From positions 1 through 36,158 of the forward strand of contig SKHJ01000053.1 in the NCBI GenBank assembly GCA_007116965.1: a stretch of DNA of 36,158 bases, read 5' to 3'. The notes under the pieces were generated by a model. The model did no database searches. It was given only the letters and a program-made list of their open reading frames with translations, and was not told the origin of the DNA. A program made the position numbers and the translations under genes. This DNA is from Candidatus Kaiserbacteria bacterium (GTDB lineage Bacteria; Patescibacteriota; Minisyncoccia; Phycocordibacterales; UBA918). Below are positions 280-35,224 of the stretch, piece by piece (position 1 is the stretch's first letter; the number at the start of each line of letters is the position of its first letter).

Positions 280-333
280 CGGGGTCTGTGGTTTTCGCGT
301 AAAGCGACCAGCGTGGTGCGGTACAATGAAGGT

Positions 334-1335
334 ATGCTGATCGAACTATCAATCGAGGTGCTTATCATCATCATTAGCCTTTTTGGGTTGCTGGTCGGTG
401 GGTTTGTGGTCCTGCAGCTCTATAACACACGGACCATTCGTCGACTTAGTTCATCGGTCTATGAGCGAATCCGCGCTGAAGCGGAACAGGAGGCACAAGC
501 CATCATTACCAATGCTCACGCTGAAGCCAGTACTATTCTCAGCCAAGCTAAGGATAATCGAGAGCAGTTACTACATATATACGAAGCGCAGTCGACCGAG
601 GCCCGAGAGATCGTTGCCGAAGCGCGGACCCAGGCGGCGACTATCCTGGCTGGCGCCGATGAGGATCGACAGCAGCTCGCTAGTGTCTACCACACGCAGA
701 TCGAACAAGCCAAGCAGATCGTGATGGAAGCAGAGGCGCAGGCGCGAGCCATTGTTGCTAGTGCCAAGGAGCAACGCACGCAGGTGGTTGATGACTACTC
801 AACACAGATCGGTAAGTTACAGAAGGTTTACGAGCAGCGTCTCGCCGAGCATATCGGCAGTTTGACCGAGCACATTGATACCCTACGGGCTTCGCAGACC
901 AAAGAGTTGACCGACGCCAGCGCGCAGTTGTTTGAGTCAATCATTCTCGAGCACGGTAAGATCCGCAAACGTTTCGACAAGGTCTTGAACTTGTTTGAAG
1001 AGACGCAGGGGACGATGGTGGGCGAAGCCAAGCAGGCGGTAGATTCAGTCAAAACGCGGCTGGACGAGACGGCGCAGACGCTCACGGAGCAGTTGCATAC
1101 CTACGACAACACCATCCGTGACACTATCTCAGAACATATCAAGCATACCTACGAGGTTATCGACGGGCAGATGGCGGAGTACCGTGAAGCCCGCGAAGCC
1201 ATTCTTGATCGTCATATTCAGCAGATCGTCGAAGACGTCACTCGCAAGGTGCTTAATAAGCAGTTGACCATTGTCGAGCACGCGGAGCTAGCGCGGGACG
1301 CGCTGGCGCAAGCCAAGAAAGATAACGTTATCTAA
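334..1335 (+). CDS. atpF: F0 ATP synthase subunit b, unusually long (333 aa)
   Basis: N-terminal TM helix (LIELSIEVLIIIISLFGLLVGGFVVL) followed by a long Ala/Glu/Gln-rich helical region. It sits between the c-like and delta genes. ATG 334 is preferred to GTG 313 because it opens directly onto the TM helix. Confidence 0.75.
   Translation: MLIELSIEVLIIIISLFGLLVGGFVVLQLYNTRTIRRLSSSVYERIRAEAEQEAQAIITNAHAEASTILSQAKDNREQLLHIYEAQSTEAREIVAEARTQAATILAGADEDRQQLASVYHTQIEQAKQIVMEAEAQARAIVASAKEQRTQVVDDYSTQIGKLQKVYEQRLAEHIGSLTEHIDTLRASQTKELTDASAQLFESIILEHGKIRKRFDKVLNLFEETQGTMVGEAKQAVDSVKTRLDETAQTLTEQLHTYDNTIRDTISEHIKHTYEVIDGQMAEYREAREAILDRHIQQIVEDVTRKVLNKQLTIVEHAELARDALAQAKKDNVI
484..807 (+). repeat. Three tandem 36-aa (108-nt) coiled-coil repeats inside atpF
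   Basis: The three units are EQEAQAIITNAHAEASTILSQAKDNREQLLHIYEAQ, STEAREIVAEARTQAATILAGADEDRQQLASVYHTQ and IEQAKQIVMEAEAQARAIVASAKEQRTQVVDDYSTQ. Conserved positions are A4, I7, A11, A15, I18, A22, R26, Q28, Y33 and Q36. Confidence 0.8.
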
Positions 1336-5986: not shown

Positions 5987-8900
5987 ATGCGCATACGTGG
6001 AGGACCGAAAAGCTGGAGTAAACGCCTAGAAAGCATAGTGCATATAACGGTGGCTGTTTTGACGGTGACGATGTTTGCCTATTCGGCGGGTGTGCGTGTT
6101 GACCTGGAACGTTTAAATGCTGTTACGCAGGTGGCACAGATCGGCAGTGCGCTGCCGACAGAGACCACCGGGCTGACACCTGAGAGTGAGTCACAGAGCC
6201 GCTGGTATGAACCGATTACGACACAAGTGCGGCACGTCTGGTCGGTAGTGGGAGAGACGTGGTACTTGGTACGGACCGGGGCGGTGTTTCAGTTGGCGCA
6301 GGTAGGAACGTCAGTGCCGGAGGGTGAGGCGGCCGCAGCTGCGCTGCGGCCGCCAGGTAGTTGGCCACTGCAGCCTGCCACCGATCCGTCGGCAGGCACT
6401 TTGATCGTCAACACGCCACTACTGGTTGATAACACCCTGACGGTCATTGGTACCAGCTCGTTGGCCACAACCACGCTGGGCGGTCCGTTGGGCGCACTCG
6501 ATGCTTCATTTACTAACGTCAGTATTGACGGCACGCTTACCATCGACACGCTGACGGCCGCGGCGGTGACGGCAGGCACGGTCGGTGCTACCGCTATTGA
6601 TACTGCCACACTAGGCGCGACAACGGTCGAAACAGCCGATTTGGGCGTTCTTAATCTCGCTACCATTGCCGAGCTGATCGTTGATAGCGCAGCTAGTCTT
6701 GGTTCGTTGCAAGTGTTGGGTGCGAGTGAGGTCACTACCTTATTGGCTACCGGTGTTTTGACGGCCCAGGGAGGTATGGTGACGCAAGGAGCTGATATCG
6801 ATGCTGGTGAAGGTGAGATCTTTGCTAGTAATATCGTTAATGAGATTGTCGCCGGGGAGAACGTGACTATCACCGGTACCCAGAATGTGCCGATCATCTC
6901 AGTCAGTGCGGATGATCTGGTTGGCGTACTCAGTCTAAATGGTCAAAGTGGTGACCTGGATCTGGTGGGCGGGGTAGATATCACTATTAGTGGTTTGACC
7001 ATCAGTAGTAATGCTACGTTGGCGACCGTACGGTCCCGTGGTGGTTGTGTCGACTGCATCACCGATGGCGATGTGCGGGCCGACCTGACCATCAGTGGCG
7101 GTACTATCAACGGCACCCCAATCGGCCTGACGACACCCAGTAGCGCGGCGTTTACTACCGTGGCTGTCGGTACCACTACCAGCTCAACAACCCTCACCGT
7201 TGGGGGTGGTTTAGAGGTGAGCGAACGGATCTTGATGACAGGTAGTGCCACCTCGACTTTCTTTGGTAGCGTTAATCTCGAGAGCGGTTGTTTTGCTATC
7301 GGTGGGGTGTGTATTGAAGGGGTAGAACCGTCGAGTTACGTGGGACTAAATGATACACCGGCCGGCTTGACCAACAACGCTCTGCAGTTTGCGAACGCGA
7401 GCGGTACCGCCTTGACCCAATCAGCCAACTTGGTCTTTGCTGACGGCCGGCTCGGAGTCGGAACAGCTACCCCAGAGCGAACACTGACCGTGGTAGGGGA
7501 TACCTTACTCTCCGGCGCGTTGCGCGTAGAGAGTAGTACCAGCTCGCAATTTGTGGGTGGTATCAACGTGACTGGTGGCTGCGTGTCGGTGGATGGGGTG
7601 TGTCTCGTCGGTGGAGTTAATCGTTTAGCTGATCTGACCGATGTGACCGTGGTGGCTACCAGTACTGGAGACATACTGCTGTTTGACGGATCAGACTGGA
7701 CCAATGTGCCGACCTCTAGCTTAGGCCTGGGTGATGGACGGTTTCGTGGGTTATCAGATACTCCCGACTTGTTTACGCCGAGTGCCATCTCCTTTGTCAA
7801 CGCTGGCGGTTCGGCTTTGACGCAGGACAGTGAGTTTATCTACAGCGGCGGTCAGCTCGGAGTAGGGACGAGTGACTTGCGGACAACGTTGACGGTCGGG
7901 GGTGATATCAGCGTGCTCGGTGCGGAGGCACTACGGTGGTACGACAGTGATAGCACCCACTACGTTGGCTTTCGAGCTCCAAGTACGTTGACAGGTTCGA
8001 CCGTTTGGACCTTGCCGGCGAGTGACGGTAGCGCCAACCAACTTCTGGTGACCGATGGCGCTGGTAATTTATTCTTTGATGACCTTAGTGCGCTGGGTGG
8101 TGGCGCTAACCGCTATGTTGAATTGACCGACACCCCGGGCGCCTTTGTTGGCGCCGGAGTGATCCCGTTTGTCAACGCGACGAGCTCTGCCTTGACCCAA
8201 GCGAGCACCTTTGTCTTTCGAGAAGGGCGGCTGGGGGTGGGTGTAAATGACCCCGGACAGACTTTGACTGTACAGGGAGATATACGCTTCCAACCCAATG
8301 CCCAGGACATCGGAATGGTGTACTCGACCAGTGGCAATCGGTTTGGTTTTGGTACACCCAGCATCAGCGACAATCGTATTGCGTTACGGGGCTCACTAAC
8401 CCAATTCGGAGGAGTACAGGGTGATCCTTACGAGCTTGTTCCGCGTGGATCGGTGACAACTTTACCTGCCCGAGTAAACGACATTGTAGTGGTCGGTAAT
8501 CTGGCCTACGCGGTGACCGATTCGGCCAACAATGACTTCCATATCATTGACGTCACTAATCCAGATAATCCGGTCGAGATCGGCCAACTTGACCTACCTT
8601 TGAACGCTAACGGTCGGGCCGTGACTATCCTTGGCCAGTATGCGTACGTGGTGTCGACTTCACAGGGTGATGATTTTCATGTCATCAATGTTAGTGATCC
8701 TACGGACCCAGAGATCGTGAACTCACTACCGTTACCGACGATACTACCAACATCTGTTAATGATGTAGCAATTAAGGGCAACTACGCCTATGTGGTCGCC
8801 AACCGCACGACTGATGCAGCCGATAGACAATTCTTTGTTATTGATATTACCGATCCGACGCAGCCATCGTTCGTAAACGAGCTATTTCTGGCTGACTCTG

Positions 8901-10372
8901 GTACTGGTATCGATATTGCGGGTAACTTTGCGTACATCACCTCAGCGGGGAGCGGTGACGATCTGCAGGTCTTTGATATCAGTGACCCGGTCAACCCAGT
9001 ACTACTTGATGGGATCAATTTACCTACCCAGGCCAATGATGTAGTAGTGCGGGGTCGGTACGCGTATGTTGTCACTAATTCAGCGGGCAACGATTTTCAT
9101 GTCATCGATATCCTTGACCCATTTGCCATGGACGAAGTTGGTTCATTGCCGCTCCCAACCAGCGCTACCGCTCTGGTGGTCAACGGTCGCTATGCCTATG
9201 TGACCACAGAAGCAGCCGGTCAAGATATCCACGTCATTGACATATTCGACCCTAGTCAACCTCGACTGATCGGCGGGTTTGACCTACAGTCCGGTGACGG
9301 GTTAGCGATAGCGGTCAGTGGTCGCTATGCCTACGTCGGTGGAAGTGGTACCAACAACCGCTTTAGGATATTTGATGTCTCAGGGGCTGAATTGCAATCT
9401 GCAGTTGTTCACTCACTGCTCGGCGGTTCTTTGGATGTCAGTAGTAATGTCGTTGTGGCGGGACGGGTCAGCGCTGGATTGGGGGTAAGTGCGGGAGTAG
9501 AGGGGTTGCGGACCGATGGACAACTGATAGTGCAGGGCACGGGTGACTCGTTCCTGGCGGGCCGTCTTGGTATCGGTACCAGCACGCCGAGTAGCGAGCT
9601 GACTGTGGCCGGTACGATTCGCTCTACTAGTATTGCTGGTTGTGATGGTCTCGATACGGATATGTTCGGTAATATCATTTGCTATTCGCCATCAGATGAG
9701 CGGCTCAAAACCGGCGTACAGAACATTGAAGGAGCCCTAGACTCTGTCTTGCAACTACAAGGCGTCTCGTTCTATTGGCTGGACGAGGAACGGTTTGGGC
9801 CACAGCGTGAACTTGGTTTTATTGCGCAAGAGGTGGCCGAGATATTCCCCGAGGCGGTACGTGAACGAGAGGAATATTGGTCGCTCAACCCTGCTCGTTT
9901 AGTGGCAGTGGTGGTAGAAGCCATCAAAGAGTTGTGGGAGGTAGTGCGAGGCAACCAGGATAAGCTAGCTGAGTTGGAGACACGGGTCGCAGAACTCGAG
10001 GCCCAACAGTCCGCAGCTATTAGTAACACGCCGGGCACTGAAGGGGGTACGACCATTGTGGGAGAAAATCTCTCGACCACAGTAGAAGACGAGGAACCCG
10101 AAACCGCTACCACCACCGCTACGACCAGTGAAATGTCCGCTGCAACGCTGGTGGAGGATGGTGTAGATACAGCCACCAGCTCAACAGCTGCCAGTACGGA
10201 TGTGACCGATACCGACGAGTCAGTGGAGTCGCCATCATCAGCTACCACCACGAGTGCTACGTTGCCAGAGAATGGTATCGAAGCTGTGCCGACGCCAGAG
10301 GTGGAGTCTGATACAGACCAGGGTAATGAGGATAGTGCGATTGCGGATGAACTGACCGAGGACGAAGAATAG
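5987..10372 (+). CDS. Giant N-terminally anchored surface protein: fibre/beta-helix repeats + 7 LVIVD repeats + peptidase S74 intramolecular-chaperone domain + acidic S/T tail
   Basis: 1461 aa from ATG 5987 (TTG 5981 is also possible). Single N-terminal TM (IVHITVAVLTVTMFAYSAGV). Thr/Gly/Val/Ala-rich repetitive body, with the domain blocks listed separately below. Confidence 0.85.
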   Translation: MRIRGGPKSWSKRLESIVHITVAVLTVTMFAYSAGVRVDLERLNAVTQVAQIGSALPTETTGLTPESESQSRWYEPITTQVRHVWSVVGETWYLVRTGAVFQLAQVGTSVPEGEAAAAALRPPGSWPLQPATDPSAGTLIVNTPLLVDNTLTVIGTSSLATTTLGGPLGALDASFTNVSIDGTLTIDTLTAAAVTAGTVGATAIDTATLGATTVETADLGVLNLATIAELIVDSAASLGSLQVLGASEVTTLLATGVLTAQGGMVTQGADIDAGEGEIFASNIVNEIVAGENVTITGTQNVPIISVSADDLVGVLSLNGQSGDLDLVGGVDITISGLTISSNATLATVRSRGGCVDCITDGDVRADLTISGGTINGTPIGLTTPSSAAFTTVAVGTTTSSTTLTVGGGLEVSERILMTGSATSTFFGSVNLESGCFAIGGVCIEGVEPSSYVGLNDTPAGLTNNALQFANASGTALTQSANLVFADGRLGVGTATPERTLTVVGDTLLSGALRVESSTSSQFVGGINVTGGCVSVDGVCLVGGVNRLADLTDVTVVATSTGDILLFDGSDWTNVPTSSLGLGDGRFRGLSDTPDLFTPSAISFVNAGGSALTQDSEFIYSGGQLGVGTSDLRTTLTVGGDISVLGAEALRWYDSDSTHYVGFRAPSTLTGSTVWTLPASDGSANQLLVTDGAGNLFFDDLSALGGGANRYVELTDTPGAFVGAGVIPFVNATSSALTQASTFVFREGRLGVGVNDPGQTLTVQGDIRFQPNAQDIGMVYSTSGNRFGFGTPSISDNRIALRGSLTQFGGVQGDPYELVPRGSVTTLPARVNDIVVVGNLAYAVTDSANNDFHIIDVTNPDNPVEIGQLDLPLNANGRAVTILGQYAYVVSTSQGDDFHVINVSDPTDPEIVNSLPLPTILPTSVNDVAIKGNYAYVVANRTTDAADRQFFVIDITDPTQPSFVNELFLADSGTGIDIAGNFAYITSAGSGDDLQVFDISDPVNPVLLDGINLPTQANDVVVRGRYAYVVTNSAGNDFHVIDILDPFAMDEVGSLPLPTSATALVVNGRYAYVTTEAAGQDIHVIDIFDPSQPRLIGGFDLQSGDGLAIAVSGRYAYVGGSGTNNRFRIFDVSGAELQSAVVHSLLGGSLDVSSNVVVAGRVSAGLGVSAGVEGLRTDGQLIVQGTGDSFLAGRLGIGTSTPSSELTVAGTIRSTSIAGCDGLDTDMFGNIICYSPSDERLKTGVQNIEGALDSVLQLQGVSFYWLDEERFGPQRELGFIAQEVAEIFPEAVREREEYWSLNPARLVAVVVEAIKELWEVVRGNQDKLAELETRVAELEAQQSAAISNTPGTEGGTTIVGENLSTTVEDEEPETATTTATTSEMSAATLVEDGVDTATSSTAASTDVTDTDESVESPSSATTTSATLPENGIEAVPTPEVESDTDQGNEDSAIADELTEDEE
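7337..8281 (+). repeat. Three copies of a ~55-aa tail-fibre-like unit spaced ~125-135 aa apart
   Basis: The units are YVGLNDTPAGL..ALQFANASGTALTQSANLVFADGRLGVGTATPERTLTVVGD, FRGLSDTPDLF..AISFVNAGGSALTQDSEFIYSGGQLGVGTSDLRTTLTVGGD and YVELTDTPGAF..VIPFVNATSSALTQASTFVFREGRLGVGVNDPGQTLTVQGD. A fourth partial copy (GRLGIGTSTPSSELTVAG) lies near 9550-9620. Confidence 0.8.
8468..9397 (+). repeat. Seven tandem ~44-aa LVIVD-type repeats (predicted 7-bladed beta-propeller)
   Basis: Repeat cores are GNLAYAVTDSANNDFHIIDVTNPDNP, GQYAYVVSTSQGDDFHVINVSDPTDP, GNYAYVVAN..RQFFVIDITDPTQP, GNFAYITSAGSGDDLQVFDISDPVNP, GRYAYVVTNSAGNDFHVIDILDP, GRYAYVTTEAAGQDIHVIDIFDPSQP and GRYAYVGGSGTNNRFRIFDVSG. Confidence 0.85.
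9692..10009 (+). other. Peptidase S74 / 'chaperone of endosialidase' self-cleaving C-terminal domain
   Basis: SDERLKTGVQNIEGALDSVLQLQGVSFYWLDEE...GFIAQEVAEIFPEAV...WSLNPARLVAVVVEAIKELWEVV, followed by the coiled coil LAELETRVAELEAQ. This matches the S-D-x-R-x-K ... G.iAQEv..v.P..V ... L...l..aiqeL pattern of phage tailspike and tail-fibre intramolecular chaperones. Confidence 0.8.
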
Positions 10373-10495: not shown

Positions 10496-11182
10496 ATGCA
10501 GTTCACCAAAGAACACCCAGTTGTTTCTGCCTTGATATCGACCATCTTGATCACTCCGCTGCTCTTTTTCATGTATTTTGCCTTTGAACCACGAGTCGTG
10601 TTGAGTCAATCTGAAGAGGAGACCTTCATTATCGAACAAATAATTGGTGAAGAGATCTCCTTCCAAGTACCTCCTGGTGATGTGGAGATGGACGGTACAC
10701 TAGGTGGTTTGTTGGGAGGAATCAGTAATGGTTCAACTACCTTCGCGGTAGCTACCAACGCACCGCTAGGTTACCAAGTGGAGATCGCGTTCACCCAAGC
10801 AGATGCGATGGTTAACAACGCCTCTTCCACGTACTTTATTCCCAACCTCAATCCTCGCGAATTTGAGTTCTCAACCTCGACTGTCGCTGGTAGCGCTGGC
10901 TTTGCGTACACGGTGACTGGTGGTACGCATGTTGATAACTTTTTCGCTGATGATGGTGATAACTGTGGTACTGGTTCAAACTACTCAGCTGACCGCTGTT
11001 GGTTTATGGAAGAAACCGCTACCACGCCACGGATAATCGTAGACTCAAATTCACCAACTGATGGTCAGGGTGATGAGACGATTCTTTACTTCAGAGTGGC
11101 AGTAGACCAGAACCCATCACTGCAGCTACCGACTGGCACCTATACTGCCACTGCTACCCTTACTGCTGCTCCGCAGACCTAA
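10496..11182 (+). CDS. Secreted/anchored beta-rich surface protein, WxL-like but Trp-less (paralogue A)
   Basis: N-terminal hydrophobic signal or anchor. Colinear motifs are shared with 12422-13189: GGISNGSTTFAVATNAPLGYQVEI, FEFSTS, DDGDNCGTGSNYSADRCW, and the C-terminal PTGTYTATATLTAAP. Confidence 0.6.
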   Translation: MQFTKEHPVVSALISTILITPLLFFMYFAFEPRVVLSQSEEETFIIEQIIGEEISFQVPPGDVEMDGTLGGLLGGISNGSTTFAVATNAPLGYQVEIAFTQADAMVNNASSTYFIPNLNPREFEFSTSTVAGSAGFAYTVTGGTHVDNFFADDGDNCGTGSNYSADRCWFMEETATTPRIIVDSNSPTDGQGDETILYFRVAVDQNPSLQLPTGTYTATATLTAAPQT

Positions 11183-11195
11183 TTTTGCGGCTTTC

Positions 11196-11223
11196 TTGCA
11201 AATGTTACGACAAGAGTTACAAT
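11196..11223 (+). promoter_or_regulatory. Candidate sigma70-type promoter TTGCAA-16 nt-TACAAT for the 11329-14806 operon
   Basis: TTGCAA (11196-11201) and TACAAT (11218-11223) lie in the 146-nt gap upstream of the 11329 gene. Confidence 0.35.
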
Positions 11224-11328
11224 AGGTCAGTAAGCTGGCCAGCAGGTTGTTAGTTGGGTGTTGTTTAGATAGAGGCCGCGATGTGTATGATTTTTATTCC
11301 TATATCCGTAAAGGTACGCGCGCAAGGC

Positions 11329-12399
11329 ATGACATCATTACGTTTGCTGACCTTGTTGTCACTCTTGCTGGTGGCAACGATACCTGTTGGGGTGCTGGCC
11401 GAGACAGGGGCAGCACCAGAAGACCTGGCGGTGCTTGATGAGGAAGTATTAGTGGTTGCAGATGATGATACAGCAGCAGTGACTGCTGACACCTCTACTC
11501 CGGAAGATAGTTATCGCAGAGAACCGCTTGTTAGTCGGGAGGTGTTTGGTGATTTTGTCATCGGTCCGGGTCGGTTTGACGTCGAGTTAGCTCCAGGGCA
11601 GTCGCGTACTGTCGAGATGACCATAGCTAATCGGATGGGGGAGGGTAAGATTTTTAGTTTCGAGACCGAGGATATGGTGGGTGCTCGTGACCCAAACCGC
11701 ACGATCGACCTACTGGGTGACCAGGAAGGGCCGTACAGCCTGCGCGACTTCATTTCTGTCTCGCACCAGACTTTTTTTCTAGAGCACGGACAGCGTGCTC
11801 GGGTACCCGTCACTATCACGTTACCTCCAGATGTGGAGCCGGGTGGACGCTACGGTTCATTGTTGGTGTCGGTTACCTCTCGTCCGAGCCAACAGGTAGC
11901 AGCTGGCACCCGTTCGGGATCGGCTATTGTCAGTCGTATTGGAGCGCTTTTCTTTGTCACGACACCTGGTGATATTGTGCGCGATAGCTCACTAACCAGC
12001 TTTAGTACACGTAATCGGCAACGGTTCTTCACAGCCGGCCCAGTTACCTTTGATATCACACAGGAGAACTTCGGGTCGGTACACACTAATCCGTACGGTC
12101 GGATGGTCATCACCAATATCTTGGGTGAAGAGGTGGGTCGGGTAAACCTGGACCCCTGGTACGTAATGCCGCAAGCAATCCGGACCCGTGAACTCACCTG
12201 GGACCGGGAGTTCTTGTTCGGGCGATATACCGCTACTGCCCAGATCAACCGAGGCTACGATGATATCGTCGACGAAAAGGCTTTCGTCTTCTACGTCGTA
12301 CCGTGGCGTCTAGGAGTGATAGTATTTGGGATTCTTTTCCTCGGCTTCTTGCTTCTCCGCTTGTTCTTCAGCCGCTTCGAACTCAAACGGAAATCGTAG
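11329..12399 (+). CDS. Surface protein with signal peptide, two beta-sandwich-like modules and a C-terminal TM anchor (DUF916/DUF3324-like architecture)
   Basis: The start is moved to ATG 11329, which opens on the signal peptide MTSLRLLTLLSLLLVATIPVGVLA. Module 1 is 'FDVELAPGQSRTVEMTIANRMGEGKIFSFE ... RARVPVTITLPPDVEPGGRYGSLLV'. Module 2 is 'VTFDITQENFGSVHTNPYGRMVITNILGEEVGRVNLDPWYVMPQAIRTRELTW..FGRYTATAQI'. The C-terminal TM is LGVIVFGILFLGFLLLRLFF, followed by a KRK tail. Confidence 0.6.
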   Translation: MTSLRLLTLLSLLLVATIPVGVLAETGAAPEDLAVLDEEVLVVADDDTAAVTADTSTPEDSYRREPLVSREVFGDFVIGPGRFDVELAPGQSRTVEMTIANRMGEGKIFSFETEDMVGARDPNRTIDLLGDQEGPYSLRDFISVSHQTFFLEHGQRARVPVTITLPPDVEPGGRYGSLLVSVTSRPSQQVAAGTRSGSAIVSRIGALFFVTTPGDIVRDSSLTSFSTRNRQRFFTAGPVTFDITQENFGSVHTNPYGRMVITNILGEEVGRVNLDPWYVMPQAIRTRELTWDREFLFGRYTATAQINRGYDDIVDEKAFVFYVVPWRLGVIVFGILFLGFLLLRLFFSRFELKRKS

Positions 12400-12421
12400 C
12401 TAAATCAACTATGTCAGCACA

Positions 12422-13189
12422 ATGTCACGTTCTATCTATATCACAACTGTTTGCGCGCTGATCTTCACTCCGCTGGTGTTGTGGGGAATTGGGGTAGTGG
12501 GGGCGCAGGTGATGAGTGGTACCACTTACCAGATCGAAAGTGATAGTATCAATTTTGGTGGTGGCTTTAGCGCCTCGGATAACTATACGCTCAAGGATAC
12601 ATTGGGTGAGATTGCGACCGGCGAGTCAGAGAGCGAATCATTTCAGTTGCGTGCGGGCTACCGTCAGTTACTAGCAGTTGCCATCGCCATCTCAGCACCG
12701 ACTCCAGTGACTATGGATCCGCCCATCCCAGGTGTGACCGGTGGTTTTTCGACGGGGTCGACCAGTGTTACCGTGACCACTGATAACCCGGCTGGCTACG
12801 AGCTCGTGATCCGAGCTGAGAGCGAGCCAGCTATGCAAGGACCTAACGGAGCCAGTATCGGTGATTACGAACAGATTGGTGATGCAGATTTTACTTTTGC
12901 TACCAGTAGTACAATGGCGCACTTTGGCTTCTCGGTGGTAGGCGAAGACGCGGCGGCTCGTTTTCGTCATGACGGGTCTAATACCTGTGGTAGCGGAACC
13001 ACCAATACACCGCTGCGCTGTTGGGTTGGATTGCGCAGTTCTCCAGAGTTGGTAGCCCAGCGCACCACCAGTAACCATCCAGAAGGGAGGGAGACTACTT
13101 TCAACTTCCAAGTTGGTATTGGTGATGCGGTATCGCAGCCGCCAGGTGTGTACATAGCTACTACTACCGTGACTGCCTTGCCATTATAA
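12422..13189 (+). CDS. Secreted beta-rich surface protein, WxL-like but Trp-less (paralogue B)
   Basis: Signal peptide MSRSIYITTVCALIFTPLVLWGIGVVGAQV. Motifs are GGFSTGSTSVTVTTDNPAGYELVI, FTFATSS, HDGSNTCGSGTTNTPLRCW, and the C-terminal PPGVYIATTTVTALPL. These are colinear with 10496-11182. Confidence 0.6.
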   Translation: MSRSIYITTVCALIFTPLVLWGIGVVGAQVMSGTTYQIESDSINFGGGFSASDNYTLKDTLGEIATGESESESFQLRAGYRQLLAVAIAISAPTPVTMDPPIPGVTGGFSTGSTSVTVTTDNPAGYELVIRAESEPAMQGPNGASIGDYEQIGDADFTFATSSTMAHFGFSVVGEDAAARFRHDGSNTCGSGTTNTPLRCWVGLRSSPELVAQRTTSNHPEGRETTFNFQVGIGDAVSQPPGVYIATTTVTALPL

Positions 13190-13198
13190 TCCAAGATA

Positions 13199-14806
13199 AT
13201 GAACGCTTGGTTTAAAATCAGTCTTTGGTTACTTCTGCTACTTCCGGTCGGAGCGCTAGCACAAGCAACTAGCCAGTCATTTACAGTTGACCAGTGGTTT
13301 GGTGAACCGCCGACCGAGCCACCGAGTATACCGGCTAACGTAATGGCCACCCCAGTGGCATCCAGCCAGATCGATATAAGTTGGGACGCTTCCACTCACA
13401 CCGCCCCAGTGGTCGGGTACCAGGTCTTTCGTGACCTGGTACAGGTTGCTACGACTGCGGGCACCTTCTTCGCCGATACTGGTCTAACGGCCAGTACTAC
13501 CTACAGCTATACGGTCCGGTCGTTTGATGGGTTTGGTAATATTTCTAGCTCCTCTCTACCAGTGGCAACCACTACTTTTGCCCTGTCGCCGCCGGCACCG
13601 GACCCCGAAGACCCAACTGGACCAAGTAGACAGGCCAGCCAGGTCCCCTTACCGACCTTGGTAGAATTTTCGCTTGAACCAGGGAGTCACAACGCGCGTC
13701 TGGCGTTCACAACTTCTGTACCGGTATGGTATTCGATCAGCTACGGACAAGGGGAGACTTTGACGGAAGGTCAGATCCAGACGGATCGTTTCGCTAGCGA
13801 TCACGTGACCGTCCTAACGGACCTTGAGCCAGGTACCACGTATACGTTTGAGCTCTACGTGACTGATCGGTTCAATCGTGAAGTATTGCTCCGACAAGGA
13901 ATGTTCACGACCAGCGAGCGGTTTGCGGTGGAAAGTCCAGAGAATGTCCTCGGCTTACAGGCCAATGCGGTCGATTCGGACGTGTCACTGCGTTGGCAGA
14001 ACCCTAGCTTTACTGGCTTTGCCTACGTTCGGGTCGTACGCAATCACCGTTTCTATCCATTGGACCCATGGGACGGATTTGTGGTTTACGAAGGAGTCGG
14101 TAACGACTTCTTCGATACGCGAGCCCTGCTGGAGTTCGATCGACAGTACTATACCGTTTTTGTTTACAATCTTAATGGTGATCACTCATCGGGAGCAATC
14201 GCGAGTGCTGTGCGCGGCGTCCGGATACCGCCACTGACACCACCGCCGGTGGTACCCGAGCCAACACCGACAGCAACCAGCACTCCCGACGAGCTGGTTT
14301 TGAGCACGGTACGCGTCAGTGATATTGAATTCATCCAGCAAGACGAGCTGATCGTGCCGCCTGTCGATACTGTATCGTTACTGCGGGGTGTACCGTTTAT
14401 AGTTCGTCTGCCATACGAGACGGTGCTGCCACACCTGAAGGTGATCATCTTTACACTCTACGTACCGGAGGGACAACCGGCTACAGTTTCGTATTTGCTT
14501 CGCAGTAACCCAGAGCAGACCCATTATCAAGCTACCATTCCAGCGTTGACGACGCAGGGTGAACACCCGTTTACGGTCACGGTGTACGATGTACAAACAG
14601 AGCGTCAACACACTGTGGTAGGTACGATCACACTGACTGCACCTGATGAACCATTGCCAGCTGGTGATCCCACGTTGTTGCTGTTGTTGTACCTCTTTCT
14701 ATTAAGTGTAGCAGGTCTGTTCGCTACGATGCTGGCTCGGTGGCTTTGGTTCTTACTCTACCGACGACGGCGAGAGGCGGCTGAGGATAAGCCAGCTCTA
14801 TCTTGA
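13199..14806 (+). CDS. Surface protein with signal peptide, three FN3-like domains, an Ig-like domain and a C-terminal anchor
   Basis: Signal peptide MNAWFKISLWLLLLLPVGALAQA. FN3 signatures are 'ATPVASSQIDISWDAS..VVGYQVFRD..FADTGLTASTTYSYTVRSFD', 'ARLAFTTSVPVWYSISYG..LEPGTTYTFELYV' and 'DVSLRWQNP..YVRVVRN..YYTVFVYN'. The C-terminus is LPAGD, then a ~30-aa hydrophobic stretch, then RRRRE. Confidence 0.7.
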   Translation: MNAWFKISLWLLLLLPVGALAQATSQSFTVDQWFGEPPTEPPSIPANVMATPVASSQIDISWDASTHTAPVVGYQVFRDLVQVATTAGTFFADTGLTASTTYSYTVRSFDGFGNISSSSLPVATTTFALSPPAPDPEDPTGPSRQASQVPLPTLVEFSLEPGSHNARLAFTTSVPVWYSISYGQGETLTEGQIQTDRFASDHVTVLTDLEPGTTYTFELYVTDRFNREVLLRQGMFTTSERFAVESPENVLGLQANAVDSDVSLRWQNPSFTGFAYVRVVRNHRFYPLDPWDGFVVYEGVGNDFFDTRALLEFDRQYYTVFVYNLNGDHSSGAIASAVRGVRIPPLTPPPVVPEPTPTATSTPDELVLSTVRVSDIEFIQQDELIVPPVDTVSLLRGVPFIVRLPYETVLPHLKVIIFTLYVPEGQPATVSYLLRSNPEQTHYQATIPALTTQGEHPFTVTVYDVQTERQHTVVGTITLTAPDEPLPAGDPTLLLLLYLFLLSVAGLFATMLARWLWFLLYRRRREAAEDKPALS

Positions 14807-17106: not shown

Positions 17107-18000
17107 ATGAACTATTTACATAGTAACGACGTAGCTCGGTTAGAGAGAAAAGCCAACGAGATACGCCAAAGTATCATCGAGATGTTGACGGCAGCGCAAA
17201 GCGGGCACACGGCCGGACCGCTCGGGATGGCTGATGTCTTCACACTTCTCTATTTCGAGGTGCTTAAGCACGATCCCCAGAATCCTGATTGGGAAGAGCG
17301 AGATCGAGTGGTGCTCTCCAACGGTCACATTTGTCCGGTCTTGTACGCTACCCTCGCCCACGCTGGGTATTTCCCGGTCGAAGAATTACTGACGTTGCGC
17401 CAATTTGGTAGTCGTCTCCAGGGCCACCCGCACCGCGGCACGCTGCCGGGTATTGAGACCAGCTCAGGACCACTTGGCTCTGGCTTGTCACAAGCTATTG
17501 GTATGGCGCTCGCGGAGCGAATGAACAATCCGTACTCTGCTAAGTACTTCTATTGTCTGACTGGTGACGGCGAAGTAAACGAAGGGCAGATCTGGGAGGC
17601 GGCGATGTTGGCAGGTAAAGAGAAGCTACATAATTTAATCGTTATCATTGACCGCAATGGTATTCAGATCGATGGGTATACGAAAGATGTAATGCCACTG
17701 GAGCCATTACGGGCAAAATTCGAGGCCTTTAACTTTGATGTGCAGGAGGTTGATGGTCACAATATTCGGAGCATCAACGACGCGATTGGTAAGGCACAGG
17801 CCGTCTACTCACAACCATCTGTTATTATTGCCCACACGATTGCTAGTAAGGGCGTCGATGTTTTCGAGCGTGATTTCCGCTGGCACGGCAATCCGCCAGG
17901 CAAGGGTCCTGAGGATCGGGTGCCACGAGATCAACAAGCCCAGGTGGCGCTAGAGAAGTTGCGGACGTTGGCAGGGACGATATCGCAGGAAACTTTATAA
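17107..18000 (+). CDS. tkt: Transketolase, N-terminal (thiamine-diphosphate-binding) subunit
   Basis: 'SGHTAGPLGMADVFTLLYF', 'RDRVVLSNGHICPVLYA', 'GPLGSGLSQAIGMA', 'TGDGEVNEGQIWEA' and 'IIDRNGIQIDG'. Confidence 0.9.
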   Translation: MNYLHSNDVARLERKANEIRQSIIEMLTAAQSGHTAGPLGMADVFTLLYFEVLKHDPQNPDWEERDRVVLSNGHICPVLYATLAHAGYFPVEELLTLRQFGSRLQGHPHRGTLPGIETSSGPLGSGLSQAIGMALAERMNNPYSAKYFYCLTGDGEVNEGQIWEAAMLAGKEKLHNLIVIIDRNGIQIDGYTKDVMPLEPLRAKFEAFNFDVQEVDGHNIRSINDAIGKAQAVYSQPSVIIAHTIASKGVDVFERDFRWHGNPPGKGPEDRVPRDQQAQVALEKLRTLAGTISQETL

Positions 18001-18009
18001 TATTCACGT

Positions 18010-35129: not shown

Positions 35130-35137
35130 ATGAGCCG

Positions 35138-35211: not shown

Positions 35212-35224
35212 AATCATAAATAAA

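What the first reader, a model, noticed from the sequence alone, without database searches (positions are those of the whole stretch)
5987..10372. Chimeric 1461-aa membrane-anchored 'cellular tail fibre'
One ORF combines the following elements:
- an N-terminal TM anchor
- a Thr/Gly/Ala/Val-rich beta-helix-like region
- three tail-fibre-type repeat units
- a seven-repeat LVIVD block
- a peptidase S74 intramolecular-chaperone domain
- a ~120-aa acidic Ser/Thr tail

S74 domains are best known at the C-termini of trimeric phage tailspikes and tail fibres. No other phage gene is nearby, and the gene sits between the ATP synthase operon and the surface locus. A trimeric fibre carrying a propeller-type head on a cell anchor looks like a host- or prey-recognition device. 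I do not recognise this exact architecture from described proteins.
Basis: partly seen in the sequence, partly recalled or inferred. Interest (0 to 1): 0.7.

Follow-up and report, generated by a model that had tools for sequence, protein, structure and literature searches.

The report
Saccharibacteria self-cleaving propeller-headed surface fibre
A tiny parasitic bacterium (Candidatus Saccharibacteria) carries, as a stable chromosomal gene, a long secreted surface fibre with a propeller-shaped head and the self-cleaving assembly domain typical of phage tail fibres; it is probably used to grip other cells, much like the fibres recently described on the predator Bdellovibrio.

Summary
The ORF (5987-10372, +, 1461 aa) is real. 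It has seven LVIVD repeats (Pfam E 5e-32) that model as a confident 7-bladed propeller. It also has a Peptidase_S74 chaperone domain with an invariant SDxxxK dyad (S1236/K1241), three internal repeats, and an acidic tail.

- The "TM anchor" is more likely a Sec signal peptide.
- The repeats match no phage protein; only the S74 module is phage-like.

The gene is not a prophage remnant. The whole window is housekeeping. About 25 unnamed homologue clusters (40-48% identity) in Candidatus Saccharibacteria metagenome-assembled genomes share the synteny atp operon → fibre → four surface genes → gap.

The four downstream genes resemble a Gram-positive WxL cluster; g2 matches WxLIP (PDB EfmWxLIP1, E 1e-7). 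The position upstream of them is a slot for interchangeable giant surface proteins, including other propeller types, a β-helix, and versions with or without S74.

The propeller → stalk → cleaved-chaperone order copies the phage K1F endosialidase. The concept matches Bdellovibrio MAT fibres, but the MAT N-domain is absent here.

My best reading is a trimeric, auto-processed adhesion fibre for contact with host cells. The function is inferred. An analogous cluster in cultured Southlakia is dispensable in the laboratory. I class it as a new variant of a known kind.

The parts
5987..10372 (+). Whole fibre gene: 1461 aa plus stop. An alternative TTG start lies at 5981.
   Evidence: ORF list. It is identical to database protein P0001, and 21 homologues share 40-48% identity and the same Pfam content.
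5987..6094 (+). aa 1-36: basic n-region (5 K/R) followed by a hydrophobic segment (aa 16-36). It is a probable Sec signal peptide or, less likely, an uncleaved signal-anchor.
   Evidence: Hydropathy. Homologues show AxA, VSA or xHA sites after the h-region. There is no lipobox Cys and no LPXTG motif.
6095..6376 (+). aa 37-130: family-specific N-terminal region with the motif W..Q...VWS...LQ.AQ.G. It is poorly conserved (22% identity) and is the candidate base or attachment module.
   Evidence: Alignment A1 consensus and per-region identity. It is not the MAT-type N-domain: hhalign probability 0.1%. The HMM for this region finds nothing in the other slot occupants.
6377..7321 (+). aa 131-445: Thr/Gly/Ala/Val-rich shaft, with invariant C354/C357 in an RGGCxDC motif and a C435/C442 pair.
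   Evidence: Composition. 45-56% identity across the family and invariant Cys. The AlphaFold2 monomer model has low confidence, so the fold is unresolved.
7322..8386 (+). aa 446-800: three shaft repeat units (u1 446-545, u2 586-660 or so, u3 706-800). Each has a [YF]xxLxDTP motif followed by LGVGTxxPxxxLTVxG.
   Evidence: Pairwise BLASTP 39-56% identity, E 1e-15 to 1e-18. Copy number and length vary among homologues: 5-470 aa in the unit-1 region. There is no match in phage records.
8426..9382 (+). aa 814-1132: seven-bladed LVIVD beta-propeller, the "head".
   Evidence: Pfam LVIVD x7 and Beta_propel. AlphaFold2 gives 28 strands at pLDDT 85-95. Foldseek returns generic 7-bladed propellers. Coordinates were checked.
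9392..9691 (+). aa 1136-1235: pre-cleavage stalk or tip, containing a fifth LGIGTxxPxxxLTVxG motif and the C1219/C1232 pair. It becomes the new C-terminus after processing.
   Evidence: Repeat analysis. 51% identity across the family, with insertions of up to 437 aa in some homologues. Cellular S74 proteins, including those of Bdellovibrio, align from about aa 1190.
9692..10006 (+). aa 1236-1340: Peptidase_S74 intramolecular chaperone with the SDERLK Ser/Lys dyad (S1236, K1241), followed by a helical coiled-coil segment.
   Evidence: Pfam. PHROG tail-fibre families match aa 1205-1345. PDB profile hits to the MYRF ICA domain 7dc3 (9e-10) and to phage fibres 8jov and 6f45. Residues are invariant. 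Translation check.
10007..10369 (+). aa 1341-1461: acidic Ser/Thr-rich low-complexity tail. It would be released together with the chaperone as a 226-aa fragment of net charge -41.
   Evidence: Composition. The character is conserved in all 22 homologues (59-165 aa, D+E 19-35%, K+R 0-3%), but sequence identity is only 16%.
10496..11182 (+). g1: 228-aa secreted protein, paralogue of g3, ending ...GTYTATATLTAAPQT. Candidate WxL-like protein.
   Evidence: g1/g3 alignment A6 is 27-32% identical with an invariant Cys pair and Y.AT.T.T motif. It is syntenic in all related loci. There is no Pfam or PDB sequence hit. The Southlakia gene at the matching position, SEML1_0627, is structurally "WxL domain-containing".
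11281..12399 (+). g2: 372-aa WxLIP-like (DUF916) protein with a C-terminal TM helix and an FELKRKS tail.
   Evidence: WxLIP_PGBD is hit in 7 of 7 orthologues, best E 1.2e-6. The profile hits PDB EfmWxLIP1 9i25/9i1y at E 1e-7. C-terminus shown.
12422..13189 (+). g3: 255-aa secreted paralogue of g1, ending ...GVYIATTTVTALPL.
13199..14806 (+). g4: 535-aa fn3-containing protein with a C-terminal TM helix and an RRRR tail.
   Evidence: fn3 is hit in 7 of 7 orthologues. C-terminus shown.

Best explanation
The gene encodes a vertically inherited, Sec-exported, homotrimeric surface fibre of an environmental Candidatus Saccharibacteria lineage. Saccharibacteria are epibiotic CPR bacteria.

**Proposed mechanism**
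1. The N-terminal signal sequence takes the chain across the membrane.
2. The C-terminal S74 intramolecular chaperone, the last part to emerge, nucleates trimerisation and zips up the stalk and shaft.
3. The Ser1236/Lys1241 dyad then cuts the chain before S1236.
4. Cutting releases a 226-aa, highly acidic chaperone-plus-tail fragment.
5. What remains is a mature fibre of about 1,200 aa. Its distal end carries three 7-bladed LVIVD propellers (one per chain) and a short trimeric tip, the same propeller → stalk → cleaved-chaperone order as the phage K1F endosialidase.

**Proposed role**
The head and tip bind a surface polymer or protein on another cell, most plausibly the bacterial host, as Bdellovibrio MAT fibres and phage receptor-binding proteins do. 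The fibre base is held at the cell surface by its family-specific N-terminal region, possibly through the adjacent WxL-like g1-g4 surface complex.

**Shown versus inferred**
- Shown: the domain content, the catalytic motif, the propeller fold, the cellular and syntenic inheritance, and the variability of the slot.
- Inferred: trimerisation, cleavage, surface display, the binding function, and any link to g1-g4.
For: - **Domains and motif:** LVIVD x7 and Peptidase_S74 pass Pfam cutoffs. SDERLK has S, D and K invariant in 22 homologues. The MAT paper shows that an SDxxxK S74 domain on a bacterial fibre self-cleaves and that an S→A change blocks it (PMC10769870).
- **S74 relatives:** profile hits to the MYRF ICA domain and to phage fibre chaperones, and to PHROG tail-fibre C-termini.
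- **Propeller:** a confident 7-bladed model.
- **Layout:** identical in order to the K1F endosialidase, namely N-domain, propeller, β-helix stalk, cleaved C-terminal domain (PMC12632334). Uncultured phage proteins with a propeller plus this chaperone domain align over 524-581 columns.
- **Export:** basic n-region, h-region and AxA-type sites. Four conserved Cys pairs.
- **Cellular and vertical:** the flanks are the ATP synthase operon and gap/rpiB/rpe/tkt, with no phage genes in 36 kb. The same synteny is seen at 40-48% protein identity in L001-L004, L006 and in 14 metagenome loci. The organism is Candidatus Saccharibacteria. Viral contigs share only the S74 module, at no more than 49% identity.
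- **Modularity typical of recognition proteins:** shaft repeat number and stalk length vary. The same slot holds EPTP-like propeller plus S74 fibres (L011, L020), non-S74 propeller proteins, and a β-helix protein. The LVIVD plus S74 head also occurs on a MAT-type N-domain chassis (L005).
- **Rate of change:** the fibre is 36-55% identical where atpD is 71-86% and gap is 63-75%.
- **Neighbouring surface complex:** g2 is WxLIP-like. The arrangement of one WxLIP plus two small paralogous secreted proteins mirrors the commonest WxL cluster (PMC10599100).
Against: - There is no experimental evidence for expression, cleavage, trimerisation or localisation.
- The monomer models of the stalk plus S74 region and of the N-terminal half have low confidence.
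- The propeller's structural neighbours are generic (WD40 proteins, the Sb-PTE hydrolase, 10-14% identity), so no ligand can be named.
- The conserved MAT N-domain is absent.
- In cultured Southlakia epibionticum, the positionally analogous giant propeller protein and WxL-like cluster (SEML1_0623-0628) are all non-essential on the laboratory host, and disrupting 0625 gives a growth advantage. A slot protein is therefore not generally required for epibiotic growth. T4P are the established host-binding organelles (PMC10633639).
- Conserved synteny in a streamlined genome does not prove a functional link to g1-g4. About half of the g1-g4 loci lack an S74 gene upstream, and some have only small ORFs there.
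Confidence: 0.6

Rival explanations
1. Enzyme-tipped fibre (depolymerase). As in the phage endosialidase, the propeller would be a catalytic domain, such as a glycosidase, lyase or esterase. It would degrade a capsule, cell-wall or exopolysaccharide polymer of the host cell to allow close contact or feeding, rather than acting as a passive adhesin.
For: The propeller → stalk → cleaved-chaperone order is the same as in the K1F endosialidase, whose propeller is the active site. The best PDB structural match is an enzyme, the Sphingobium phosphotriesterase 5hrm (E 7e-13). The Southlakia study found essential envelope proteins with polysaccharide-binding or -degrading domains.
Against: The 5hrm match has only 12-13% identity, and WD40 scaffolds score as well. 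No glycoside hydrolase, lyase or sialidase family was hit in Pfam or NCBIfam. The residues conserved across blades (G.YAYV...DFHVIDIS.P) are the structural LVIVD consensus. No off-repeat catalytic cluster was identified.
Confidence: 0.15
2. Structural envelope component. The fibre would be a constitutive part of the Saccharibacteria cell surface, such as an S-layer-like coat, a spacer or a glycocalyx scaffold. It would serve in envelope integrity or in keeping distance from the environment, with no specific partner on another cell.
For: It is a single, syntenic gene embedded among core genes. The propeller profile weakly matches Bacteroides "surface layer protein / YncE family" propellers (E 7e-4 to 9e-3). 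LVIVD propellers are extremely common in giant surface proteins, with 18,082 representatives at E<1e-30. The analogous Southlakia cluster is non-essential for growth on its host.
Against: The slot is occupied by unrelated head types in related genomes, and in some by no giant gene at all. That fits an exchangeable specificity factor better than a core structural one. S74-matured trimeric fibres with characterised functions are receptor-binding or enzymatic.
Confidence: 0.15
3. The N-terminal hydrophobic segment is not cleaved, and it tethers the fibre directly in the cytoplasmic membrane as a type-II signal-anchor.
For: In the window protein and its closest relatives (P0002, P0003, P0008, P0009) there is no canonical AxA site after the h-region. 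The segment spans about 20 residues, with 5 K/R on its N-terminal side.
Against: About 13 of 22 homologues have clear Pro/Gly-preceded AxA, VSA or xHA sites. Acceptable -3/-1 sites also exist here (FAYS|A, YSAG|V). The Bdellovibrio MATs use a signal peptide plus a separate N-domain. No signal-peptide predictor was available.
Confidence: 0.3
4. Prophage or phage-tail-like-particle remnant. The gene would be a leftover tail fibre from an integrated phage or a contractile injection system.
For: The S74 domain and the pre-S74 stalk match many PHROG tail-fibre and baseplate families and 358 viral contigs.
Against: There are no other phage-like genes in the 36-kb window. The position is the same, between atpC and g1, in genomes whose proteins are only 40-48% identical. 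The GC content matches the flanks. Viral matches cover only the S74 module at no more than 49% identity, whereas cellular Patescibacteria share 50-61% there. The shaft has no phage match.
Confidence: 0.02

Closest known systems
Bdellovibrio bacteriovorus MAT (mosaic adhesive trimer) fibres, S74 subgroup, e.g. Bd3182 (Caulton et al. 2024, PMC10769870)
   Same: Both are chromosomal, non-phage genes of a bacterium that lives on other bacteria. Both are long secreted fibres ending in an S74 chaperone with an SDxxxK motif. The distal parts are mosaic and swappable, and S74 and non-S74 variants coexist. The pre-S74 stalk and the S74 domain align at 32-37% identity with Bdellovibrio proteins.
   Different: The conserved ~130-aa MAT N-terminal domain is absent (hhalign probability 0.1%), although other Saccharibacteria fibres (L005, L020, L189, L241) do have it. 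A 7-bladed LVIVD propeller is inserted before the stalk. A long acidic tail follows the S74 domain. The organism is a monoderm-like CPR bacterium, not a diderm. It is a single gene at a fixed slot, not a 21-member paralogue family.
Phage K1F endosialidase tailspike (endoNF), the prototype of the S74 "chaperone of endosialidase" domain
   Same: The order of modules is the same: attachment region, one β-propeller per chain, a trimeric β-helix stalk, and then a C-terminal chaperone removed by Ser-dependent autocleavage.
   Different: The propeller here is a 7-bladed LVIVD type with no sialidase or GH signature, not a sialidase propeller carrying a β-barrel insert. A shaft of about 800 aa precedes the head. 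The gene is cellular rather than part of a virion. No close viral relative of the head was found.
Uncultured Caudovirales proteins with a propeller plus an intramolecular chaperone domain (BFVD A0A6J5Q2D1, A0A6J5NHQ6, A0A6J7WX40)
   Same: Their predicted structures align over 524-581 columns, spanning both the propeller and the chaperone region (E 1e-14 to 8e-18).
   Different: Sequence identity is only 12-18%, and large rmsd values show that domain orientation differs. They are viral. No IMG/VR contig carried a sequence relative of this head.
MYRF / MrfA intramolecular chaperone auto-processing (ICA) domain of eukaryotes
   Same: It is the best PDB sequence match to the S74 part (7dc3, E 9e-10), with the same Ser/Lys self-cleavage module following a triple-β-helix.
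   Different: In MYRF the TM helix lies C-terminal to the cleavage site, and cleavage releases an N-terminal transcription factor. Here the export signal is N-terminal, and cleavage discards the C-terminal fragment.
WxL / WxLIP (Csc) cell-surface clusters of Firmicutes (for the neighbouring genes g1-g4)
   Same: There is one WxLIP-like protein (PGBD hit in 7 of 7, PDB EfmWxLIP1 at 1e-7, C-terminal TM) plus two small paralogous secreted proteins, matching the commonest composition of one WxLIP plus two WxL. They lie next to a large protein with outward-facing binding domains.
   Different: g1 and g3 have no Trp-x-Leu motifs and give no WxL Pfam hit. The HBD (DUF3324) was not detected. The large partner carries no WxL domain. 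The organism is a CPR bacterium.

Membership tests
Peptidase_S74 / intramolecular chaperone auto-processing domain (PF13884) | Sequence match to the family model above the curated cutoff | tested here: met
   63.4 bits against a cutoff of 22, E 2.4e-17, aa 1236-1292, covering the full model 1-58. The profile hits MYRF ICA 7dc3 and phage fibres 8jov and 6f45.
Peptidase_S74 / intramolecular chaperone auto-processing domain (PF13884) | Catalytic Ser-Lys dyad in an SDxxxK motif at the start of the domain | tested here: met
   SDERLK at aa 1236-1241. S1236, D1237 and K1241 are invariant in 22 homologues. The motif is as defined in PMC10769870.
Peptidase_S74 / intramolecular chaperone auto-processing domain (PF13884) | Autoproteolytic release of the C-terminal domain after trimer assembly | not testable with these tools
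   This needs protein expression with S1236A or K1241A controls. The monomer AlphaFold2 model of this part has pLDDT 37-60.
LVIVD repeat beta-propeller (PF08309) | Tandem LVIVD repeats above the cutoff that form a propeller | tested here: met
   7 stretches, 109 bits against a cutoff of 20. The AlphaFold2 model has 7 blades of 4 strands each, pLDDT 85-95.
Choice-of-anchor B (TIGR04312) | Score above the NCBIfam cutoff | tested here: not met
   67.8 bits against a cutoff of 100. The match reflects shared LVIVD-type blades only.
Bdellovibrio MAT superfamily | [quoted passage not shown] | tested here: not met
   hhalign of family aa 55-140 against an alignment of Bdellovibrio (L055, L067) and Saccharibacteria (L020, L005) N-domains gives probability 0.1%. 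BLASTP matches to Bdellovibrio proteins are confined to aa 1185-1342. The assumption that L055 and L067 are MATs rests on their organism, their S74 end and their N-terminal similarity to each other; it was not checked against the published list.
Bdellovibrio MAT superfamily | S74 terminus with SDxxxK (S74 subgroup) | tested here: met
Bdellovibrio MAT superfamily | Intertwined trimeric beta-helix/prism fibre displayed on the cell surface | not testable with these tools
   Only monomer prediction was available. The shaft model has mean pLDDT 46.
Phage tail fibre / prophage gene | Embedded among phage structural or lysogeny genes, or present on viral contigs | tested here: not met
   All 30-odd neighbouring genes are housekeeping or surface genes. 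PHROG hits are limited to the S74 module of the fibre and the fn3 of g4. IMG/VR relatives share only the S74 module.
Phage tail fibre / prophage gene | Shaft repeats homologous to phage fibre repeats | tested here: not met
   tblastn of aa 440-800 against 50,697 phage records gives no match at E<=1e-3. The only PHROG hit is an unknown-function family at aa 523-583. BLAST's low-complexity filter may hide weak similarity.
Endosialidase (GH58) tailspike | Module order of propeller, then trimeric stalk, then cleaved S74 domain | tested here: met
   Propeller aa 814-1132, stalk 1136-1235, S74 from 1236, compared with the K1F description.
Endosialidase (GH58) tailspike | Sialidase-type catalytic propeller | tested here: not met
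   There is no sialidase, BNR or GH hit in Pfam or NCBIfam. The structural neighbours are 7-bladed WD40 and phosphotriesterase propellers, not sialidases.
WxL cluster (neighbouring genes g1-g4) | A WxLIP protein: PGBD (DUF916) + HBD (DUF3324) + C-terminal TM helix | tested here: inconclusive
   PGBD is hit in 7 of 7 orthologues, but below the Pfam cutoff in the window copy (21 against 27.3 bits). The profile hits PDB EfmWxLIP1 at E 1e-7. The C-terminal TM is present. The HBD was not detected by sequence.
WxL cluster (neighbouring genes g1-g4) | At least two WxL-domain proteins with the dual Trp-x-Leu motif | tested here: not met
   g1 and g3 are paralogues, but they give no WxL Pfam hit, have no W-x-L motifs and hit nothing in PDB. 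The only support is indirect: the Southlakia protein at the matching position is structurally similar to a WxL-domain protein.

The most novel reading that the evidence does not exclude
The position immediately upstream of the WxL-like g1-g4 cluster is a host-range cassette of Saccharibacteria. It would be a fixed chromosomal socket into which evolution plugs interchangeable giant adhesins. Examples include LVIVD, EPTP-like or RCC1 propellers and a β-helix, with or without an S74 self-cleaving chaperone, on at least two different N-terminal chassis. The WxL-like complex would dock these fibres onto the epibiont's peptidoglycan. The head carried would then help decide which host bacterium the epibiont can attach to. 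This would be a cellular counterpart of receptor-binding-protein swapping in phages and of MAT tip-swapping in Bdellovibrio.
Probability: 0.2. Interest if true: 0.8.

Novelty: new variant of a known kind. Interest (0 to 1): 0.55.

Why it matters
How CPR/Patescibacteria epibionts recognise and hold on to particular host bacteria is an open question. So far only type IV pili and a few glycan-binding proteins have been implicated (PMC10633639). A conserved, phage-style, self-processing fibre with swappable heads would give a concrete candidate for host-specificity determinants.

The candidate is directly testable:
- The S1236A change tests cleavage.
- Head-swap and knockout experiments are possible in naturally competent Saccharibacteria.
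- Head type can be correlated with host range across metagenome-assembled genomes.

The finding also extends the recently defined class of cellular tail fibres from Bdellovibrio to a second, unrelated lineage that lives on other bacteria. It shows that S74-ending proteins are widespread across CPR classes, which I could not find reported. It also points to a WxL-type surface cluster outside the Firmicutes.

Tried and rejected
1. **Prophage or phage origin.** Rejected on gene context, deep synteny, and viral matches limited to the S74 module.
2. **Membership of the MAT superfamily by N-domain.** Tested and not met.
3. **Tail-fibre-type shaft repeats.** No phage match and no PHROG tail family.
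4. **Function from the propeller fold.** Foldseek against PDB returns only generic 7-bladed scaffolds at 10-14% identity. PDB sequence-profile hits to Bacteroides surface-layer/YncE propellers are marginal. No ligand can be assigned.
5. **AlphaFold2 of the N-terminal half (aa 41-445).** Mean pLDDT 46, unusable, so I ran no fold search on it. The stalk plus S74 region is also poor as a monomer, and no multimer option was available.
6. **Promoter and terminator scan.** Counts do not differ from shuffled sequence, so it gives no evidence on operon structure. The only feature is a terminator-like hairpin after g1.
7. **Public names.** None of the family members carries any annotation.
8. **Functional link to the ATP synthase operon.** Rejected as incidental. 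L020 carries an S74 fibre plus g1-g4 with obg and gatB upstream instead. Many g1-g4 loci lack the atp genes upstream.
9. **Sortase anchoring.** A sortase gene lies at 35278-36069, but no LPXTG-like motif occurs in the fibre or in g4.
10. **g1/g3 as bona fide WxL domains.** Not supported by sequence.
11. **Literature.** No paper was found linking Saccharibacteria or Patescibacteria with LVIVD, S74 or tail-fibre-like proteins.

Full report
**1. What is in the sequence**

A single ORF runs from 5987 (ATG; an in-frame TTG lies at 5981) to the stop at 10372 on the + strand and encodes 1461 aa. Its GC content matches its flanks.

Pfam finds seven LVIVD stretches (E 5.2e-32) together with the related Beta_propel model. 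It also finds a full-length Peptidase_S74 "chaperone of endosialidase" domain at aa 1236-1292 (E 2.4e-17). Both are far above the curated cutoffs. NCBIfam gives only a sub-threshold choice-of-anchor-B hit over the same blades.

My reading of the anatomy, from N- to C-terminus, is as follows.
- **aa 1-36:** a basic n-region (MRIRGGPKSWSKR) followed by a hydrophobic stretch.
- **aa 37-130:** a poorly conserved N-terminal region.
- **aa 131-445:** a Thr/Gly/Ala/Val-rich stretch with an invariant RGGCxDC motif.
- **aa 446-800:** three clear repeat units (446-545, 586-660, 706-800), 39-56% identical pairwise at E 1e-15 to 1e-18. Each has a [YF]xxLxDTP motif and an LGVGTxxPxxxLTVxG motif. Degenerate copies lie at about aa 380-449 and 1150-1235.
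- **aa ~814-1132:** seven blades with the consensus G.YAYV...G.DFHVIDIS.P..P.
- **aa 1136-1235:** a stalk of about 100 aa.
- **aa 1236-1241:** SDERLK, checked at 9692-9709.
- **To about aa 1340:** the rest of the S74 domain plus a helical segment.
- **aa 1341-1461:** a 121-aa tail with T 21%, E 16%, S 12%, D 9% and no Lys or Arg.

Four Cys pairs (354/357, 435/442, 532/539, 1219/1232) fit an extracellular protein. The sequence-level observation is therefore right.

**2. It is a conserved family, not a one-off chimera**

The word-indexed search of 5.8 billion proteins returns 21 further proteins of 1262-1933 aa at 40-48% identity. All carry LVIVD plus Peptidase_S74, and none is named (confirmed by cluster look-up).

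In their alignment S1236, D1237 and K1241 are invariant, along with many Gly, Cys and aromatic positions. This is the SDxxxK catalytic motif. Per-region identity is as follows.

| Region | Identity across the family | Note |
|---|---|---|
| Signal and N-terminal region | 15-22% | lowest, with the tail |
| Shaft | 45-58% | |
| Propeller | 44% | |
| Stalk | 51% | length ranges 99-437 aa |
| S74 domain | 56% | |
| Acidic tail | 16% | |
| First repeat region | not separately scored | length ranges 5-470 aa |

The shaft is therefore modular. The tail keeps its character in every member (59-165 aa, D+E 19-35%, K+R 0-3%) although its sequence does not align. That argues the acidic, disordered nature is itself selected.

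An exhaustive HMM search of 1.84 billion representatives with the head-stalk-S74 profile shows that LVIVD propellers are extremely common in giant proteins, with 18,082 hits at E<1e-30. Only about 25 representative clusters match the profile end to end.

**3. Organism and genomic context**

Full-length relatives in the GTDB genome set are all "uncultured Candidatus Saccharibacteria" metagenome-assembled genomes (L004, L006).

The window is wholly housekeeping. In order, it carries:
- F-type ATP synthase genes;
- the fibre;
- four small surface genes;
- gap, rpiB, rpe and a split transketolase;
- pfkB, L25, an SLT-like protein, RF, S2 and EF-Ts;
- tRNA-Thr;
- a GT2 glycosyltransferase, PheS/PheT, GyrB and a sortase.

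PHROG hits are confined to the S74 module of the fibre and the fn3 of g4.

The order atpA-G-D-C → fibre → g1-g4 → gap-rpiB-rpe-tkt is reproduced on a 592-kb contig, on a 99-kb contig, in the GTDB metagenome-assembled genomes, and in 14 metagenome loci. This holds even though the fibre proteins are only 36-55% identical. In the same loci atpD is 71-86% identical and gap 63-75%.

IMG/VR viral contigs contain 358 relatives, but only of the S74 module and at no more than 49% identity. None has this head. Other Patescibacteria share 50-61% identity in that module. This is a vertically inherited cellular gene.

**4.

(a) *Anchor.* All 22 homologues have 1-7 K/R followed by an h-region. About 13 then show Pro/Gly-preceded AxA, VSA, xHA or VVA sites, such as PQPAAAA|IE, QPVSA|QVP, FAAHA|QTT and QQAHA|AAT. 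That is the signature of a cleavable Sec signal peptide. The window protein (…TMFAYSAGVRV) and its four nearest relatives are ambiguous. I put an uncleaved signal-anchor at about 0.3.

(b) *"Tail-fibre-type" repeats.* tblastn of aa 440-800 against 50,697 phage genomes finds nothing. No PHROG tail family matches the shaft, and Pfam is silent. Only the last LGIGT…LTV motif plus the S74 domain is shared with phage and other cellular fibres.

(c) *"Beta-helix-like".* This could not be tested. The monomer AlphaFold2 model of aa 41-445 has mean pLDDT 46.

**5. Structure**

With a 15-sequence sub-alignment, AlphaFold2 models aa 814-1132 as a 7-bladed propeller of four strands per blade, at pLDDT 85-95. 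The stalk and S74 parts are poor, as expected for a monomer of an intertwined trimer.

Foldseek against PDB gives generic 7-bladed propellers at 10-14% identity, including the Sphingobium phosphotriesterase 5hrm and the β-TrCP and Fbw7 WD40 domains. No ligand or activity can be inferred.

The sequence profile hits three S74-domain structures: the MYRF ICA domain (7dc3, 9e-10) and the phage fibres 8jov and 6f45. For the propeller it hits, marginally, Bacteroides "surface layer / YncE family" propellers.

Against predicted viral structures, several uncultured-Caudovirales proteins of 1020-1412 aa align across both the propeller and the chaperone. One of them is annotated as containing an intramolecular chaperone auto-processing domain. 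A Pithovirus protein shares the propeller at 24% identity.

The module order of propeller, trimeric stalk and cleaved chaperone is exactly that of the K1F endosialidase, the protein after which the S74 domain is named (PMC12632334). The head is therefore three propellers arranged around a central stalk that continues about 100 aa beyond them. It is not a terminal knob.

**6. Comparison with the known class of cellular tail fibre**

Caulton et al. (PMC10769870) described 21 MAT fibres on the Bdellovibrio surface.
- All have a signal peptide, a conserved β-rich N-domain of about 130 aa, and a long intertwined trimer with variable tips.
- 13 end in S74 with an SDxxxK motif.
- Self-cleavage was shown and was abolished by S782A.
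- One member binds prey glycans.

The window protein shares the concept and the S74 end. BLASTP to Bdellovibrio proteins is 32-37% identical over aa 1185-1342. It does not have the MAT N-domain: hhalign probability is 0.1%.

Other Saccharibacteria fibres do carry that N-domain ("…INYQGKL…G.pv.dG.Y…"). L020 and L005 match Bdellovibrio L055 and L067 at about 1e-5 and each other at 8e-19. L189 and L241 share it with L020 at 52-60% identity. L005 combines this MAT-type N-domain with an LVIVD propeller and S74, 32% identical to the window protein over aa 831-1408.

The LVIVD-S74 head therefore exists on two different chassis. This is direct evidence of module shuffling.

**7. The neighbours and the "slot"**

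The four downstream genes are co-conserved wherever the fibre occurs.
- **g2** matches the WxL-interacting-protein PGBD (DUF916) in 7 of 7 orthologues (best E 1.2e-6). Its profile hits the solved E. faecium EfmWxLIP1 (9i25/9i1y, E 1e-7). It ends in a TM helix plus FELKRKS.
- **g1 and g3** are paralogous small secreted proteins. They are 27-32% identical, with an invariant Cys pair, and end …G.Y.AT.TLTA…. They give no WxL Pfam or PDB hit.
- **g4** has fn3 in 7 of 7 orthologues and a C-terminal TM helix plus an Arg-rich tail.

One WxLIP plus two small partner proteins is the commonest WxL-cluster composition in Firmicutes. There, WxLIP is proposed to hold WxL proteins on peptidoglycan (PMC10599100).

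Searching metagenomes from g2 outward and mapping the flanks shows that g1-g4-gap is broader than the fibre family. Of 39 loci with enough upstream sequence, the split is as follows.
- **18 loci** have an S74 fibre abutting g1. 14 of these are the LVIVD type, always with the atp genes upstream.
- **Most of the remaining 21** still have a giant ORF there of a different kind. These include an EPTP-like propeller without S74 (L187), LVIVD without S74 (L207), a right-handed β-helix (L241), giants of 1,591-2,850 aa with no recognisable domain (L189, L216), and an S74 giant of at least 2,996 aa (L215).
- **A few** have only small ORFs upstream.

In L011 and L020 the slot holds an S74 fibre whose head is a different propeller, with W.SVTYGNGLFVAV…MTSPDGINWT repeats and weak EPTP/DUF6242 hits. 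L020 lacks the atp operon upstream, so the ATP synthase adjacency is incidental.

**8. A cultured relative**

The structure-based annotation of Southlakia epibionticum ML1 (PMC10633639, supplement 2) lists the following, all on one strand.

| Southlakia gene | Description | Counterpart here |
|---|---|---|
| SEML1_0628 | 1,284 aa, two 7-bladed RCC1 propellers plus fn3 | giant slot protein |
| SEML1_0627 | best structural match "WxL domain-containing protein", TM 0.85 | g1 |
| SEML1_0626 | DUF916 | g2 |
| SEML1_0625 | Ig-like | g3 |
| SEML1_0624 | fn3 | g4 |

The order giant → g1 → g2 → g3 → g4 is the same. I could not fetch those sequences, so orthology is inferred from order, size and annotation.

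The Tn-seq table classes all of SEML1_0623-0628 as non-essential on Actinomyces israelii, with 0625 giving a growth advantage when disrupted. This tempers the functional claim. A slot protein is not required for epibiotic growth on a permissive laboratory host. That is compatible with redundancy, since T4P and other adhesins are essential there. It is also compatible with a role in host range or in environmental conditions, but it is not positive evidence.

**9. Most likely mechanism**

- **Shown:** an export signal; an S74 domain with an intact, invariant dyad; a confident propeller; the endosialidase-like order; modular, fast-evolving, swappable architecture; and cellular inheritance.
- **Inferred from established knowledge of S74 domains** (the endoNF, T5 pb1, MYRF and Bd3182 work cited): the C-terminal domain nucleates trimerisation of the preceding β-helical stalk and then cuts itself off at the Ser.

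Here that would release aa 1236-1461, which is 226 aa with net charge -41. It would expose a new C-terminal tip ending …NIICYSP.

By analogy with MATs, phage receptor-binding proteins and endosialidase, I infer that the three propellers and the tip bind, or less likely degrade, a surface component of another cell. For an obligate epibiont that cell is most plausibly its host. Retention of the fibre on the Saccharibacteria surface through the N-terminal region and/or g1-g4 is speculative.

The conserved acidic tail is unexplained. Possible roles are keeping the chaperone fragment soluble or repelling it from the anionic wall after release.

**10. Rivals**

- Enzyme-tipped fibre: 0.15.
- Structural coat: 0.15.
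- Direct membrane anchoring, as the anchoring sub-model: 0.3.
- Prophage remnant: 0.02.

The evidence for and against each is given in the rival entries.

**11. Novelty and score**

No paper in the searchable library links Saccharibacteria or Patescibacteria with LVIVD, S74 or tail-fibre-like proteins. All family members are unannotated. The kind of object, a chromosomal S74-matured adhesive fibre of a bacterium that lives on bacteria, was described in 2024 for Bdellovibrio, and propeller-stalk-chaperone tailspikes have long been known.

I therefore rate it a new variant of a known kind. What is new is the following:
- the lineage, CPR;
- the N-terminal chassis;
- the LVIVD head;
- the conserved acidic tail;
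- the fixed slot beside a WxL-like cluster, with interchangeable occupants.

Interest is 0.55. It is a good, testable lead for CPR host recognition rather than a surprise in principle.

Noticed in passing
window 10496-14806 (g1-g4): This is a four-gene surface cluster resembling a Firmicute WxL/Csc locus in a CPR bacterium. It comprises two paralogous small secreted proteins (g1, g3), a WxLIP/DUF916-like TM protein (g2, PDB EfmWxLIP1 at E 1e-7), and an fn3 protein with a C-terminal TM helix (g4). It is conserved next to gap in many Saccharibacteria, and the same order appears in cultured Southlakia (SEML1_0627-0624).
   Followed up: partly
L011 160-8684, L020 5499-8222, L187, L189, L207, L215, L216, L241 (regions just upstream of g1): The position upstream of g1 holds interchangeable giant surface proteins. 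These include EPTP-like propeller fibres with S74, propeller proteins without S74, a right-handed beta-helix protein, and giants of 1,591-2,850 aa with no recognisable domain. Three of them (L020, L189, L241) share a MAT-type "INYQGKL" N-terminal domain at 40-60% identity despite having different distal parts.
   Followed up: partly
L005 5706-10241: A second Saccharibacteria fibre (1505 aa) combines a MAT-type N-domain with an LVIVD propeller and S74. It sits at a different locus, with no g1-g4 nearby. It shows that the same head occurs on a different chassis.
   Followed up: partly
L008, L009, L013, L014, L016, L017, L019, L027, L039, L040, L051, L065, L066: S74-terminated proteins occur in many other CPR classes: Nomura-, Parcu-, Kaiser-, Vogel-, Falkow- and Uhrbacteria, Paceibacterota and Minisyncoccia. 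In L017 and L027 the S74 gene is followed directly by gap and rpiB, without g1-g4. I found no literature on this.
   Followed up: no
window 10007-10369 and the equivalent tails in 21 homologues and in L011: A long acidic, Ser/Thr/Pro-rich, Lys/Arg-free tail follows the S74 domain. It is conserved in character but not in sequence (Pro/Glu-rich in L011). The Bdellovibrio S74 proteins in L036 and L067 have only about 20-35 residues after the domain. Its function is unexplained.
   Followed up: partly
window 11171-11190: A terminator-like hairpin with a T-rich tail lies right at the end of g1. It might make g1 the most abundant product of the cluster. Overall terminator-like counts do not exceed those in shuffled sequence.
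   Followed up: no
window 17107-18999: Transketolase is split into separate N-terminal (297 aa) and C-terminal (329 aa) genes. The split is conserved in the related loci L001 and L002.
   Followed up: no
window 313-1335 and 1348-1866: A 340-aa coiled-coil ORF (weak V-ATPase_G_2, DivIVA and apolipoprotein hits) and a 172-aa ORF with no Pfam hit head the ATP synthase operon. They are probably divergent b and delta subunits. The listed atpA ORF start (1658) overlaps the previous ORF, so the real start is probably further downstream.
   Followed up: no
window 34056-36069: A sortase gene (35278-36069) lies next to a 363-aa minus-strand ORF with no Pfam hit. Neither the fibre nor g4 has an LPXTG-like motif, so the sortase substrates are elsewhere.
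   Followed up: partly
L001 1-3541: In the 592-kb relative, a 4,286-aa protein with Laminin_G_3 and fn3 domains lies just upstream of the ATP synthase operon. It is another giant surface protein near this region.
   Followed up: no
L011 160-8684: A run of masked bases, read as X, splits what is probably one fibre gene of more than 2,800 aa into ORFs of 1976 aa and 873 aa. It contains at least three propeller blocks separated by GNVGIGTTxP...L.V repeats.
   Followed up: no
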